DNA of 24,138 nucleotides. It comes from Gammaproteobacteria bacterium (GTDB lineage Bacteria; Pseudomonadota; Gammaproteobacteria; SURF-13). The translations under genes and the position numbers were made by a program. The DNA lies in assembly GCA_043721815.1 (NCBI GenBank), contig JAYSPZ010000164.1, forward strand, positions 1-24,138, written 5' to 3'. The notes under the pieces were generated by a model. That model searched no databases, was not told the origin of the DNA, and saw nothing but the letters and a program-made list of their open reading frames with translations. This document shows, one piece after another, positions 4,616 through 11,867 of this stretch. Positions within the stretch are counted from its first letter, which is position 1; each line of letters begins with the position of its first letter.

Positions 4616-4649
4616 ATGACACCACGCAATACACGGCGCGTGGTGTCAT
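4616..4649. promoter_or_regulatory. 12-bp perfect inverted repeat upstream of copA SD
   Basis: ATGACACCACGC-N10-GCGTGGTGTCAT. On the minus-strand mRNA it is followed by AUUUGUUG and ends about 15 nt before the SD. Function is inferred only. Confidence 0.5.
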
Positions 4650-4900: not shown

Positions 4901-5347
4901 TTACCGCACTGTGTAGTTTTCTCGCATTGTCTTCAGAACCTTCTGCAATTTTTGGAAATTAGACTCCGTGCCGACTTTATCCTTAGCATCGCCACTGGCA
5001 TCCAAGCGTTCGGCTAAAGTTGCTACGAACTGACTATTGGTTTTAATTTTTGCCAGCTTGTCAGCAGGCAAGGCACCGGAACGGGCTGGTATTGCCGCTA
5101 CGAGATCACGGATAGCAAAGGCGTGAAGGTGCACTTCATTGAGCTTGCCGGTTTCGATAACCTTCGCTAGCTCCTCGCTTCGTTTATCTATTGATTGCCA
5201 AATAGCGTCAGTGGTGGTTGGAACCTCTACTTTGGTCTCGGGTTTTTCTGCCGCTTGCGCGGACGGGTTAAATAGCGCGCTGCCAACCAGCAGCGCGCCG
5301 AGTAGAGCGGTCTGGGGTTTAACAATTTTCATCAATGTCTTCTTCAT
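4901..5347 (-). CDS. Secreted alpha-helical protein of unknown function, coupled to the RND pump gene
   Basis: Signal peptide ending AQA-A, amphipathic helical pattern, EVHLHAF motif. ATGA overlap with the RND stop at 5344-5347. Confidence 0.8.
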   Translation of the reverse strand: MKKTLMKIVKPQTALLGALLVGSALFNPSAQAAEKPETKVEVPTTTDAIWQSIDKRSEELAKVIETGKLNEVHLHAFAIRDLVAAIPARSGALPADKLAKIKTNSQFVATLAERLDASGDAKDKVGTESNFQKLQKVLKTMRENYTVR

Positions 5348-8598: not shown

Positions 8599-9824
8599 TA
8601 GTGCTGATCTCCGGCTTCGGTGTGCTTGTTCCCATCGGTATGCTCTTCCGCCGCAAGCGGTTTTTTAGCCTGCGGGTCTGTCGAGACGGGTTTTTCCTGT
8701 TTCGTTTGCTTACTGCCAAAAGTCTTGATGCGCGCCGTGAAGTTGCCTATCCCATTAGTAAGCTGGCCTATCCAGCTAACTGGTTTTTCATCTTTCATCT
8801 GGCTATCAGGAGCGGTCGGCTTTTCCTCTTTTGCCGACTCGCCACTGCCGGTCAGCCACATCGTGTAAACCTGCCGGTTGCCTTGCGTCACGACTTCATC
8901 GCCAGGCACCAGGCCCTCGGTGATTTCACTGAATGCACCATCGCGCACGCCAACACTCACTTCCATGCGATTAAAGCTGTTGCCTTCCGCCACAAACACG
9001 AACTTCTCACCATTGGCTTCAACAATAGCGCTGTTGGGCACCGCCAGCGCCGCGTCGTTACGCTTCAGGATCACGCTGGCGCGCGCAAACATATTGGGCT
9101 TGAGCAGGCCCTGTTCATTCGCCAGTTCTATCCAGAGATTTACGGTGCGGCTAAGTGGATCAAGGTTGGTATCGATCAACGTGACCTTGCCGGTAAATAT
9201 CTCATTGGGATAACTGAGCACATGAACACGGGCCTCCTGCTCGACCTTGATCTTGCCCAGGTCTTCCTCAAATACCTTGGCTATGACAATGACTTGCGTG
9301 CGGTCACTGATATGAAAAAGTGAAGAATTGGGCTCCACCGCCTGGCCGACACTCACATTAAGCGCATCGATAAGGCCGCTCATGGGCGCAGTAATATTGA
9401 CGCTGGGCGGTGGATCGCCACTCAGGCGCGATTCCACCTTGGCGAGATTCTGCCCGGCCTTGACCGTATCCCCCAGCTTGGCGTACAAGGCCTTCACCTG
9501 GCCGCTAATGCGTAGGCCGACCTCAGCCTGGCGGTTGGGTAGCAACTGCACCTGACCGTTGAGGTTCAACTCCTGATTGATAGTGCGTACTTCAGCGGGC
9601 GCGGTTTGCAGGGCAATAGCCTGCTTCTGCTGATCGGTGAGTTGCACCGGGCCGCGTGCGCCACCACCGCCCACCTCGATTTCCTCGCCATGGCCAACGG
9701 CCTCGGGCAGCATGAATGGCAGGGTTAGTAGCAATAAAACGATTCCTGTAATAAATCGAAGAAATGCACTGTGGCTCACTCTGTTTCGAAATATGTAGCT
9801 ATTCAATGCGGTTATTCCTTTCAT
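8598..9824 (-). CDS. RND periplasmic adaptor (MFP), apparently lacking the alpha-helical hairpin
   Basis: N-terminal TM anchor; lipoyl halves RISGQVKALYAKLGDTVKAGQNLA and ITAPMSGLIDALNVSVGQAV; LDPLSRTV, LKPNMFA, VPNSAIV, GLVPGDEVVTQG. Confidence 0.92.
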   Translation of the reverse strand: MKGITALNSYIFRNRVSHSAFLRFITGIVLLLLTLPFMLPEAVGHGEEIEVGGGGARGPVQLTDQQKQAIALQTAPAEVRTINQELNLNGQVQLLPNRQAEVGLRISGQVKALYAKLGDTVKAGQNLAKVESRLSGDPPPSVNITAPMSGLIDALNVSVGQAVEPNSSLFHISDRTQVIVIAKVFEEDLGKIKVEQEARVHVLSYPNEIFTGKVTLIDTNLDPLSRTVNLWIELANEQGLLKPNMFARASVILKRNDAALAVPNSAIVEANGEKFVFVAEGNSFNRMEVSVGVRDGAFSEITEGLVPGDEVVTQGNRQVYTMWLTGSGESAKEEKPTAPDSQMKDEKPVSWIGQLTNGIGNFTARIKTFGSKQTKQEKPVSTDPQAKKPLAAEEHTDGNKHTEAGDQH

Positions 9825-11259
9825 AGGGGCGTGTGGCTGGCACGGTCATAGACATCGACTGATCTGGTAGCGTGGGAACCTGCTGGCCCCGTGTTACATC
9901 TAATTGCGCGTCCGAAGTAAAGGAATTCGACGGGCCTGGTGCCAGTCCGTCTCCGAAACTGCTCCCAACTCCAAAGGCCAGGCCCGTCAATGCTTGCAAA
10001 TACTGGTCAAGGACATTGAGATAAGCGATATGTGCATCGGTGTGCTGGCGCTGGGCCTGCACCACGGCAAAGATCGGGATTTGCCCAAGGCCATAGGCAG
10101 CCTGCGAATTACTGACGTTACTGTCGGCTAAAGGTAGTATGGTGTGTTCGTAGTCATGCAGGGCCACCTTCAGGCGTTCGCTCTCGGCGTAGGCGCTGGC
10201 GACCTGGTTGCTGATGCTGGCCGCAAGCGCTTCACTCCGCGCCGTAGCCTGGCTGCCCGCAACGATGGCTTCGGCGATGCGGCCCTGATTCTTATTGCGC
10301 AAGGGTAGGGGGATAGACAGGGTCACACCCAATGCACGCTCGGTGTCTTGCGGCGGTGCGCCGGTGATGGACAGGCGACTTTGCTCCACGCCTACGCCGA
10401 CCGTCCAGTCTTCCCAGGTCTGGGAACGCGCCAGTGCCTGAGCCGCACGGGCGCGTTCCAGGTTCAGGGCCTCGACCCGTAATTCGGGACGTTGGCTTAA
10501 GGCTTGTTGTTGCAACTTCTCCACACCGGGCAAGACCTGTGCCCTGGCCAACGAGTCATCCAAGGTCAATGCCTGCCCAGCGACCCTCCCCAGCAACTGG
10601 TTCAGCAGGCCCTGTTGTGTTGCCTGCTGGTTTTGCAGCAAGGTACGCTCCTGCTCCAAACGCGCCAGCTCTATGCGCGCCGTGAATACATCCAGTTCCG
10701 ACACCTCTGCCACCTTGAAGCGGTTGCGGGTGACCTTGACCAGCTTTTTATCCACCTTTATCAGACTGTCACGCTCCGCAATCTGGCGATTCAGGACGAT
10801 GATCCGGTAATACGTGGAGGCCACATTACCCGTCAGCCTGCGCTCGGCGATATTGATTTCAGCCATTGCCAAGTCAACATCCACCCGCGCCACGTCTTTC
10901 TCGCGGGCCAGCCACCCGGCTACGGGGAACTGCTGGGTGAAGCCCGCACTGACGGCGTATTCGCCGTTATTACCGAACAGAAAGTCGCTGCGCGTGGACA
11001 ATTCGAGGCGCGGATTAGCAGGCAATCCAGCCTGCGCCAGACGGGCATGTGCGGCATCCACGCTATAACGGGCTGCTTGCAAATCCTTGTTATTTTGCAG
11101 GGCCAGCGTAATGACTTCTTCCAGCCCGAAGCTTGTCGCGTTGCTCTGAGACTCGATCCCTTTTGCCATAAGGGCGGCGCTCACGGCGCTCAGCCAGCCG
11201 CCAGCGACAATAACGAGAACCAGACGCGACAAAGCGCGGTTGAGCATGAGTAATGACAT
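9799..11259 (-). CDS. TolC/CzcC-family outer-membrane efflux factor
   Basis: EVITLALQNNKDL, ALSQRPEL, LSIPLPLRNKNQGRI, two-repeat OEP pattern. Start chosen at ATG 11259 (GGGA upstream, signal peptide follows) rather than 11301. Confidence 0.93.
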   Translation of the reverse strand: MSLLMLNRALSRLVLVIVAGGWLSAVSAALMAKGIESQSNATSFGLEEVITLALQNNKDLQAARYSVDAAHARLAQAGLPANPRLELSTRSDFLFGNNGEYAVSAGFTQQFPVAGWLAREKDVARVDVDLAMAEINIAERRLTGNVASTYYRIIVLNRQIAERDSLIKVDKKLVKVTRNRFKVAEVSELDVFTARIELARLEQERTLLQNQQATQQGLLNQLLGRVAGQALTLDDSLARAQVLPGVEKLQQQALSQRPELRVEALNLERARAAQALARSQTWEDWTVGVGVEQSRLSITGAPPQDTERALGVTLSIPLPLRNKNQGRIAEAIVAGSQATARSEALAASISNQVASAYAESERLKVALHDYEHTILPLADSNVSNSQAAYGLGQIPIFAVVQAQRQHTDAHIAYLNVLDQYLQALTGLAFGVGSSFGDGLAPGPSNSFTSDAQLDVTRGQQVPTLPDQSMSMTVPATRPYERNNRIE

Positions 11260-11265
11260 GAAATA

Positions 11266-11385
11266 TATTCCCAAAATTAAACACCGTGCTGAATAACACA
11301 CGAGCCGGGAATACGGTTTGAGGTGAAACGGAGAAGCTTAAGGATGCCCCAAAACCGTAATACCCAGCCCGAAAAGGGCAGGGTA
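11266..11385 (-). promoter_or_regulatory. Structured intergenic leader with potential SD-masking hairpin
   Basis: 7-bp inverted repeat at 11307-11313 / 11266-11272 that includes the putative GGGA SD; competing 8-bp inverted repeat at 11352-11359 / 11312-11319; hairpin at 11361-11385. Confidence 0.5.
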
Positions 11386-11393
11386 GAAGGACA

Positions 11394-11867
11394 TCAGAGC
11401 GGTGGGGCGTGAGGCCAGAGGGAGTTGGCGATTAAAAAATGCCTGGATTTGCCGCCGGGAGGGTCAATGCCGAAATGGCGGACAACCAGTGCCGGCAAGA
11501 AAAGAACAGCAGAAATAACGGCAATAAACGGTACTAAAACATAGGCCAGATCATACAATGCCTGAAGATTGCTGGCCTGAGAAAATGCCGAGAGATTTTG
11601 CAGTAAGGTACAGCAAGCGTCCCCCGATTTTTTATCGCCCCCGCCATGTTGGACGTGCTCACCGGCTTGGTTGCTAACCGGGGTGGAACCTGCTCCAAAG
11701 TGTTGCTCCGGGGACTCACCGAACTGCATTACACTTATCGAGCAAACCGCCAGCGAAAATATCCAACTAGCCAATACCACCCAAGCAATACCGCGCAAAC
11801 TCACACCACCGAACCGCCGGAAAATGGAATTATGACGCATCGGTTGGTTTGGAACGGCTGGATACAC
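11394..11867 (-). CDS. DUF2946/CzcI-like upstream ORF; candidate metal-sensing ribosome arrest peptide
   Basis: N-terminal hydrophobic segment, His-containing linker, DACC, second hydrophobic stretch, C-terminal SLWPHAPPL*. First gene of the metal-efflux operon. Start uncertain (GTG 11867 or ATG 11840). Confidence 0.7.
   Translation of the reverse strand: MYPAVPNQPMRHNSIFRRFGGVSLRGIAWVVLASWIFSLAVCSISVMQFGESPEQHFGAGSTPVSNQAGEHVQHGGGDKKSGDACCTLLQNLSAFSQASNLQALYDLAYVLVPFIAVISAVLFLPALVVRHFGIDPPGGKSRHFLIANSLWPHAPPL

What the first reader, a model, noticed from the sequence alone, without database searches (positions are those of the whole stretch)
11259..11394. Mutually exclusive RNA pairings that expose or hide the SD of the OMF gene
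On the mRNA, UAUUCCC (11313-11307) can pair with GGGAAUA (11272-11266), which contains the only SD-like sequence before ATG 11259; a CGUG/CACG pair inside the loop extends it. The overlapping AAACCGUA (11319-11312) can instead pair with upstream UACGGUUU (11359-11352). A third hairpin (11385-11361) begins 9 nt after the uORF stop, near the footprint of a ribosome stalled on HAPP. This is the kind of SD-masking switch described for the R. capsulatus cutF-cutO junction.
Basis: partly seen in the sequence, partly recalled or inferred. Interest (0 to 1): 0.7.

Follow-up and report, generated by a model that had tools for sequence, protein, structure and literature searches.

The report
Leader RNA switch before copper pump gene
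The 134-base gap between a small copper-sensor-like membrane protein gene and the first gene of a copper efflux pump is a conserved, folded RNA leader with two competing shapes. It probably lets ribosomes finishing the sensor gene control the pump, a variant of a known mechanism that is shown here only by computation.

Summary
They do not form the switch as written. The "alternative" helix (11359-11352 with 11319-11312) overlaps the anti-SD by only 2-3 nt, and folding predicts that it coexists with a still-masked SD.

The real competitor for the anti-SD is the 3' arm of the post-stop hairpin (11370-11363), which pairs with 11309-11302. Its energy is -29.9 kcal/mol and z is -4.2.

The leader is therefore a four-segment element: 1:2 plus 3:4 when OFF, 2:3 when ON.

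- In 14 related loci, both conformers keep their pairing (84% and 92% of cells; slid controls reach at most 56%).
- The gap is better conserved than the flanking genes.
- Covariation is not significant, and SD masking is no stronger than in shuffled leaders.
- In this window the hairpin starts 9 nt after the stop, at the edge of a terminating ribosome's reach.

The upstream protein is a divergent CutF/CruR-like (sub-threshold DUF2946) protein ending in xAPPx-stop. Best reading: a ribosome-actuated relay, a new variant of the CutF type. A CruR-like Rho mechanism is a serious rival.

The scan's earlier notes on this same window raised the arrest-peptide idea.

The parts
11394..11840 (-). Upstream ORF of 148 aa from ATG 11840 (a GTG at 11867 is also possible). 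It has an N-terminal membrane or signal segment, a His-rich stretch, a vicinal Cys pair, a second hydrophobic segment, and a C-terminus ...LWPHAPPL followed by UGA at 11396-11394.
   Evidence: Every one of about 24 loci and 20 of 20 retrieved representatives of the 33 clusters carry xAPP or xAPS at or within 17 residues of the C-terminus. The Pfam DUF2946 match is sub-threshold.
11361..11385 (-). Hairpin 1, made of segments 1 and 2. The 5' arm is 11385-11376, the loop 11375-11371 and the 3' arm 11370-11361. It has 9 bp with a U11380-U11366 mismatch, and about -15.7 kcal/mol.
   Evidence: A hairpin starts 1-4 nt after the stop in most loci of clades A-D, with different sequences in each clade.
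11301..11371 (-). Composite ON helix (segments 2:3) of 22 bp. The proximal half pairs 11371-11361 with 11310-11301. An apical mini-hairpin spans 11339-11326.
   Evidence: One search gives -29.9 kcal/mol, z -4.23, and 0 of 200 shuffles as stable. One search lists the pairs. One search finds 91.9% of cells paired in 14 homologues, against at most 56% for slid controls.
11307..11314 (-). Anti-SD (G)UAUUCCC, the nucleotides shared by the OFF and ON conformers.
11281..11306 (-). Inner hairpin of the SD mask, including CGUG/CACG. Its 5' strand GGCUCG (11306-11301) is taken by the ON helix. It is followed by a U-rich tract at 11281-11273.
   Evidence: flags it as terminator-like, but the count is not above shuffles.
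11265..11273 (-). SD region, with GGGAAUA at 11272-11266 and core GGGA at 11272-11269. It is the 3' strand of the mask (segment 4).
   Evidence: The mask hairpin 11314-11265 has -16.7 kcal/mol and z -2.58.
11257..11259 (-). ATG start of the outer-membrane factor gene (OEP family, 486 aa, ending at 9799).
11300..11470 (-). Stretch of the mRNA strand where C exceeds G. It covers the 3' end of the upstream ORF and most of the leader. The segment 11346-11307 has 16 C and 3 G.
   Evidence: The plus-strand GC skew reaches +0.42.

Best explanation
The 134-nt leader is a cis-acting, four-segment RNA switch. It couples translation of the CutF/CruR-like upstream ORF to expression of the cusC-like pump gene.

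Segment 1 is 11385-11376 and segment 2 is 11370-11347. Segment 3 is 11323-11301 and contains the anti-SD. Segment 4 is 11273-11265 and contains the SD.

On a free transcript, 1:2 (hairpin 1) forms first. The anti-SD pairs with the SD, which is the OFF state.

When a ribosome at the very end of the upstream ORF holds segment 1 open, the freed 3' arm extends the existing distal helix into the anti-SD. The distal helix acts like a toehold. The result is the 22-bp 2:3 helix, which releases the SD and also removes the 5' strand of the inner hairpin. This is the ON state.

Shown: the pairings exist, their energies are balanced, both conformers and the leader are conserved, and the gene context is as described.

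Inferred: that a ribosome is the actuator, that the xAPP C-terminus causes a pause, that copper is the signal, and whether a pause means ON or OFF.
For: (1) The ON helix is strongly non-random: -29.9 kcal/mol, z -4.2, 0 of 200 shuffles. The SD-mask hairpin has z -2.6.

(2) The energies are balanced like those of a switch. On a transcript ending at 11300, ON (-29.9) is about equal to hairpin 1 plus the distal helix (-28.3). Once segment 4 exists, OFF wins at -41 to -43. If the 5' arm is held single-stranded, ON wins by about 11 kcal/mol.

(3) Masking the 5' arm flips the anti-SD's partner from the SD side to the hairpin-1 side in about 10 of the 14 clade-A leaders; L012 needs a longer mask and L020 reverts at the longest. 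In the window the SD-to-AUG opening cost falls from 7.2 to 3.6 kcal/mol.

(4) Across 14 clade-A leaders, OFF pairs are kept in 83.7% of cells and ON pairs in 91.9%, against at most 56% for slid controls. Most variable pairs change only on one side while remaining paired.

(5) The leader is more conserved (63-85% identity to the window) than the adjacent coding DNA (51-82% and 54-59%). It stays with the upstream ORF even where the downstream gene differs, in L012, L006, L020 and L026.

(6) In the sequence-divergent clade B, the RNAalifold consensus is the analogous 2:3 helix, made by the 3' arm of the post-stop hairpin. L004 shows the full OFF-to-ON flip.

(7) A hairpin starting 1-4 nt after the stop occurs in most loci of four clades, with unrelated sequences.

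(8) The copper cluster (cusCBA-like genes, multicopper oxidase, CopB, CusF) shows no regulator domain in the seven ORFs scanned or the two pump ORFs scanned earlier.

(9) There is precedent in CutF (PMC9973294; 10.1101/2025.02.05.636593).
Against: No significant covariation was found. Shuffle controls reach the observed values, and only 1-3 compensatory pairs exist, so the conservation could partly reflect sequence constraint.

The native SD opening cost of 7.2 kcal/mol is ordinary for shuffled leaders (6.6 +/- 1.8; 47 of 150 are at least as high). The drop on masking is only marginal for the window, with 10 of 150 shuffles at least as large.

In L003, L005 and L017 the ON state is already favoured at equilibrium. 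L006 never flips. SD exposure in the ON state is only partial.

The geometry in this window is marginal. Hairpin 1 starts at +9, and the flip needs nucleotides up to about +12 held open. A ribosome with the stop codon in its A site covers about +9 or +10 (textbook toeprint distances). A ribosome arrested on Pro-Pro reaches only about +3.

In L030 the hairpin follows the stop although APP lies 4 codons upstream, and no relay is predicted there.

L006, L020 and L026 keep GGGAAUAC with no start codon after it.

There are no expression data.
Confidence: 0.4

Rival explanations
1. CruR-like or mgtL-like transcription attenuation. The same alternative structures and the ribosome's position at the ORF end decide whether Rho, loading on the C-rich leader, or a weak intrinsic terminator (inner hairpin plus U tract) stops RNA polymerase before the pump gene. 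SD masking would then be secondary.
For: A stretch with more C than G covers the ORF's 3' end and the leader. The plus-strand skew reaches +0.42, and 11346-11307 has 16 C and 3 G. CruR shows the same signature, and there Rho termination was demonstrated and the gap is 162 bp (PMC9426467). The inner hairpin followed by UUUAAUUUU, or UUAGUUUUUU in other clade-A loci, is flagged as terminator-like. The ON helix sequesters both that hairpin's 5' strand and much of the C-rich tract.
Against: The C-rich single-stranded stretch in the OFF state is only about 23-40 nt, which is short for a rut site. The terminator-like count is not above shuffles (1 found, mean 1.3), the stem is weak, and the U tract is interrupted. 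Clade B has no comparable hairpin plus U tract. No transcript-end data exist.
Confidence: 0.25
2. A static structured spacer. The long helix and the hairpins act as a processing or stability element, for example an RNase III site or 3'/5' protective hairpins. This would uncouple the abundance of the upstream-ORF and pump mRNA segments, with no ribosome-driven switching.
For: A 22-bp imperfect duplex is the size of an RNase III substrate. The cutF-cutO stem-loop was first described as affecting mRNA stability (PMC8456105). A hairpin directly after a stop codon is a common 3' stabiliser. In some homologues one conformer dominates at equilibrium.
Against: This does not explain why two mutually exclusive conformers are both conserved and nearly isoenergetic. 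It also does not explain why the shared strand is exactly the anti-SD.
Confidence: 0.15
3. DNA-level element. The conserved gap would hold an internal promoter or operator for the pump genes, and the RNA pairings would be incidental.
For: The gap is more conserved than the coding DNA, and no regulator gene was recognised in the ORFs scanned.
Against: No sigma-70-like promoter lies on the coding strand inside the gap. The substitutions are predominantly pair-preserving in two overlapping helices. The ON helix has z -4.2. The element travels with the upstream ORF rather than with the pump gene.
Confidence: 0.07
4. One reading: 11359-11352 with 11319-11312 competes with 11313-11307 with 11272-11266, and that alone exposes or hides the SD.
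For: Both helices exist. The 8-bp helix is predicted with probability about 0.75.
Against: The overlap is only 2-3 nt. The predicted structure holds both helices at once, with the SD core still paired at U11311-A11268 through G11306-U11273. The probabilities are 0.76 for the helix and 0.72 for the mask at the same time. In 10 of 14 homologues one pair of that helix is broken (column pair 45:89).
Confidence: 0.05

Closest known systems
R. capsulatus cutF-cutO leader (CutF, DUF2946; PMC9973294, PMC8456105, bioRxiv 10.1101/2025.02.05.636593)
   Same: A small exported Cys-motif protein with C-terminal prolines is encoded directly upstream of a copper-detoxification gene. An anti-SD/SD stem hides the downstream ribosome-binding site. 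Regulation is in cis through the ribosome translating the upstream ORF. An outer-membrane efflux (OEP) gene is the commonest downstream neighbour of CutF-like genes in that survey.
   Different: The cutF-cutO gap is 40 bp, with one stem-loop that the stalled ribosome melts directly. Here the gap is 134 nt, the SD lies about 120 nt from the stop, and a second hairpin plus a 22-bp alternative helix would have to relay the signal. CutF ends PPPRL, whereas this protein ends HAPPL. This protein has a second hydrophobic segment and misses the Pfam DUF2946 threshold.
B. pertussis CruR-bfrG (DUF2946 uORF with RAPP; PMC9426467)
   Same: A copper-responsive upstream ORF with an xAPP motif lies a few residues from the C-terminus. 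The gap is long and structured (162 bp). C exceeds G from the ORF's 3' end into the gap.
   Different: The CruR output is Rho-dependent termination, and copper relieves the arrest. The motif is RAPP, whereas here Arg is replaced by His, Asn or Gln. No SD-masking relay has been described for CruR. It controls an uptake system, while this locus controls an efflux system.
Four-segment translational attenuators (ermC, cat leaders) and leader-ORF-controlled alternative stem-loops (Salmonella mgtL-mgtA, mgtP-mgtC); from my own knowledge, not checked in papers here
   Same: Pairing of 1:2 plus 3:4 against 2:3, with the regulated gene's SD or a terminator in segment 4, and the ribosome's position on a leader ORF choosing the fold. 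The mgtL and mgtP leaders also use proline codons.
   Different: Those leader peptides are 8-19 residues long and the stall site lies inside segment 1. Here the leader protein is a 148-aa membrane protein, and segment 1 lies after the stop codon, so only a terminating or termination-paused ribosome could act.
RAPP/RAGP arrest peptides of the secretion monitors (SecM, ApdA, ApdP; PMC10951233, PMC12992588)
   Same: A C-terminal xAPP motif in a small membrane-targeted protein encoded upstream of a regulated gene. The second hydrophobic segment lies about 26-28 residues before the motif, a spacing suited to force-sensitive release.
   Different: Arg is reported to tolerate few substitutions (PMC12992588). 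HAPP, NAPP and QAPP are untested. The regulated gene is a metal pump rather than part of the Sec/YidC machinery.

Membership tests
CutF-type SD-masking control (cutF-cutO) | The upstream protein belongs to DUF2946/CutF-like: signal peptide, Cys metal motif, and PP within the last 15 residues. | tested here: inconclusive
   A signal or TM segment, a CC pair and APP at -4 to -2 are present. Pfam DUF2946 gives E 0.13 and 13.4 bits against a cutoff of 23.7. Of 16 members, 12 match weakly (best E 0.021), and a distant relative gives 0.0019.
CutF-type SD-masking control (cutF-cutO) | A stem-loop pairs the downstream gene's SD with an anti-SD. | tested here: met
   It is conserved in clade A, with 90.5% of cells paired. 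It is a prediction only, and the opening cost is not above shuffles.
CutF-type SD-masking control (cutF-cutO) | The gap is short enough (40 bp; most are under 100 nt) for the stalled ribosome to melt the SD stem directly. | tested here: not met
   The gap is 134 nt, and the mask's 5' strand starts 80 nt after the stop.
CutF-type SD-masking control (cutF-cutO) | Copper-dependent, cis-acting, translation-dependent induction. | not testable with these tools
   No RNA runs hold this DNA.
CruR-type Rho attenuation | An arrest-competent RAPP motif close to the C-terminus. | tested here: not met
   The motif is HAPP here and NAPP, HAPP or QAPP in relatives. Arg is never present at that position.
CruR-type Rho attenuation | A C>G bubble (rut) from the ORF's 3' end into the gap. 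| tested here: met
CruR-type Rho attenuation | Rho-dependent termination between the ORF and the downstream gene. | not testable with these tools
   This needs bicyclomycin treatment or in vitro transcription.
Four-segment translational attenuator (ermC type) | Mutually exclusive 1:2 plus 3:4 against 2:3 pairing, with the SD in segment 4. | tested here: met
   (computational).
Four-segment translational attenuator (ermC type) | The ribosome stall site lies inside segment 1 of a short leader peptide. | tested here: not met
   Segment 1 lies 9-18 nt after the stop of a 148-codon ORF.
Any curated RNA family (Rfam 15) | A match to a covariance model. | tested here: not met
   One search gives only a chance-level hit on the opposite strand (flpD, 16 bits against a threshold of 40).

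The most novel reading that the evidence does not exclude
A long-range RNA relay actuated by a ribosome. A termination-proximal pause on a conserved xAPPx-stop tail of a membrane-inserted, Cys-motif copper sensor opens a post-stop hairpin. The freed arm then invades the anti-SD about 60 nt downstream, using a pre-formed toehold helix. This switches on translation, and possibly read-through, of a cusCBA-type pump in a copper island where no transcription factor was recognised in the ORFs scanned. It would extend the CutF principle from direct melting to signal transmission over more than 100 nt.
Probability: 0.3. Interest if true: 0.65.

Novelty: new variant of a known kind. Interest (0 to 1): 0.5.

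Why it matters
Upstream ORFs of the CutF/CruR type are a recently recognised way for bacteria to sense periplasmic metals without a transcription factor. Only two have been dissected, and the survey paper left open how those with long intergenic gaps work. This leader offers a concrete and testable architecture for such a case: four named segments, with coordinates and predicted compensatory mutants. It lies upstream of the commonest class of downstream gene, the RND outer-membrane factor. It also shows that a rare, divergent branch of the family (33 clusters among 1.84 billion representatives) keeps an xAPP tail in which Arg is replaced. That bears on which RAPP-like motifs can pause ribosomes.

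Tried and rejected
- RNA-seq support: no RNA holder is listed for this DNA.
- Rfam: no family matches.
- Covariation statistics: the shuffle controls are not exceeded for the OFF, ON or clade-B hairpin structures. The set is too small and too similar.
- Exceptional SD masking: rejected. The native opening cost is ordinary compared with shuffles.
- Intrinsic terminator at hairpin 1: no U tract follows it in any clade.
- Internal sigma-70 promoter in the gap: none on the coding strand.
- Repeat or REP element: the leader and hairpin 1 are single-copy in the window and in the 1.1-Mb assembly.
- Read-through or fusion of the upstream ORF with the pump gene: the frames differ and the gap lengths vary out of frame.
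- Alternative upstream start (GTG 11301) for the pump gene: not conserved. The ATG and first codons are conserved in all pump-linked loci.
- Generality of the relay: clade D (L030) keeps only the post-stop hairpin.
- More homologues: order-level searches of 20, 401 and 103 genomes added only 4 new loci.
Full report
**What is there.** On the minus strand the window carries a copper cluster. In order it holds:
- a 148-aa ORF (11840-11394);
- a 134-nt gap;
- an outer-membrane factor gene (ATG 11259, Pfam OEP);
- a CusB-type adaptor and an RND pump;
- further on, a multicopper oxidase, CopB and CusF.

No regulator domain appears in the seven ORFs scanned or the two pump ORFs scanned earlier.

**The observation.** The ATG at 11259 is the real start. 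In 17 homologous loci an ATG with near-identical first codons aligns with it, and the gap length varies out of frame between 105 and 134 nt. The unconstrained fold of 11420-11240 contains the post-stop hairpin and the SD-masking hairpin, at -48.4 kcal/mol and z -2.0. In shuffles, a perfect 7-nt anti-SD appears with P = 0.025 and an inverted repeat of 8 nt or more with P about 0.047.

The helix 11359-11352 with 11319-11312 shares only 11313-11312 with the anti-SD, or 11314 as well if a G-U pair is counted. Folding places hairpin 1, this helix and a mask trimmed by 3 bp in one structure, with the SD core GGGA still paired. The probabilities are 0.76 and 0.72 at the same time. This helix alone therefore cannot expose the SD.

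**What competes instead.** When the 5' arm of hairpin 1 is held single-stranded, the MFE changes. This is a 22-bp composite helix spanning 11371-11347 with 11323-11301. On its own it folds at -29.9 kcal/mol, with z -4.23 and none of 200 shuffles as stable. It takes the whole anti-SD and also the 5' strand of the inner hairpin.

The leader is thus a four-segment element: 1:2 plus 3:4 (OFF) against 2:3 (ON).

**Energies.** Hairpin 1 is worth -15.7 and the mask hairpin -16.7 kcal/mol (z -2.58).
- On a transcript ending at 11300, ON (-29.9) and hairpin 1 plus the distal helix (-28.3) are nearly equal.
- With segment 4 present, OFF wins at -41 to -43.
- With segment 1 blocked, ON wins by about 11 kcal/mol.
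- The cost of opening SD to AUG falls from 7.2 to 3.6 kcal/mol.

**Conservation.** The upstream protein has few relatives: 14 by word-indexed search, and 33 clusters among 1.84 billion representatives. I recovered about 24 loci in four clades.

In clade A (14 leaders):
- The gap is more conserved than either flanking gene: 63-85% against 51-82% and 54-59%.
- OFF pairs are kept in 83.7% of cells and ON pairs in 91.9%, against at most 56% for slid controls. Most changes are one-sided and pair-preserving, and one is a clean compensatory change in the mask, in L014.

In clade B, which shares only 34-43% gap identity, the consensus fold is the analogous 2:3 helix formed by the 3' arm of a post-stop hairpin of different sequence. 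A hairpin starting 1-4 nt after the stop is present in most loci of the four clades. The leader follows the upstream ORF even where the downstream gene differs.

**Weaknesses.**
- Covariation is not significant.
- SD masking is no stronger than in shuffled leaders: 47 of 150 are at least as high. The masking-dependent drop is marginal for the window, at 10 of 150.
- Equilibrium predictions differ among homologues.
- In this window hairpin 1 starts at +9, and the flip needs about +12 held open. By textbook toeprint distances, a ribosome on the stop codon covers about +9 or +10, and one arrested on Pro-Pro about +3. Most other clade-A loci need only +3 to +10, within a terminating ribosome's reach.
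- In L030 the hairpin tracks the stop codon, not the APP motif. If a ribosome is the actuator, it is therefore one at or next to the stop.
- Whether pausing means ON or OFF cannot be decided.

**Context and rivals.** The protein is a divergent CutF/CruR relative. Its DUF2946 match is sub-threshold. It has a CC motif and a second hydrophobic segment. An xAPP or xAPS tail is present in every locus and in all 20 retrieved cluster representatives, but never with Arg.

CutF uses a 40-bp gap and one stem-loop (PMC8456105, PMC9973294). CruR uses Rho with a C>G bubble and a 162-bp gap (PMC9426467). This leader also has a C>G bubble and a weak terminator-like inner hairpin. A transcription-attenuation output is therefore a serious rival or a companion mechanism. 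A static processing element and a DNA operator are less likely.

**Verdict.** This is a real, conserved, structured leader. The best model is a ribosome-actuated relay, a new variant of the CutF kind, and it remains unproven.

Noticed in passing
L006:2909-3140, L020:545-780, L026 (minus strand, after the ORF stop): Three loci keep the whole leader, including GGGAAUAC, but have no start codon after it. About 45 nt further on lies a second UAUUCCC copy, followed by a different gene (a lipoprotein-like ORF starting about 223 nt after the stop) with its own AGGAG. This may be an extended relay, or a remnant left after the gene was replaced.
   Followed up: partly
L012:604-1500: The leader is 78% identical to the window's, but the downstream ORF is a 78-aa protein that keeps the pump gene's first residues (MSxxWLNR). 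A 177-aa ORF follows, and only then the OEP gene.
   Followed up: no
L028:1384-2150 and L029: A distant homologue of the upstream protein (ending LWPQAPPH or LWPQAPPR) lies 272 nt upstream of a Tat-signal multicopper oxidase. This is the CopL/CutF-type context, and a 5-bp hairpin starts at +1 after the stop.
   Followed up: partly
L030:1501-2110: In a relative ending WPHAPPHAAV, a strong 13-bp hairpin starts 1 nt after the stop. The hairpin therefore tracks the stop codon, not the APP motif, which lies 4 codons upstream.
   Followed up: partly
window 11250-11259 (minus strand) and equivalents: The first codons of the pump gene (ATG TCA TTA C..) are nearly invariant across clades A and B, although the leaders have diverged to 34-43% identity. 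This could reflect the signal-peptide N-region or an RNA or translation-initiation constraint.
   Followed up: no
window 4616-4649 (minus strand): A perfect 12-bp hairpin (AUGACACCACGC ... GCGUGGUGUCAU) sits about 28 nt upstream of the likely ATG (4587) of the multicopper oxidase, in the cluster's second long gap. A 148-aa ORF with no Pfam match (4901-5347) precedes that gap.
   Followed up: no
It is almost certainly a chance match to an AT-rich palindrome-like sequence.
   Followed up: no
window 11388-11395 with 11343-11350 (minus strand): In this window only, GAUGUCCU, which overlaps the stop codon, can pair with GGGGCAUC to form an 8-bp helix enclosing hairpin 1. L019 and L012 instead have a 4-bp outer helix using the 6-nt insertion specific to this subclade. 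A terminating ribosome would melt these outer helices.
   Followed up: partly
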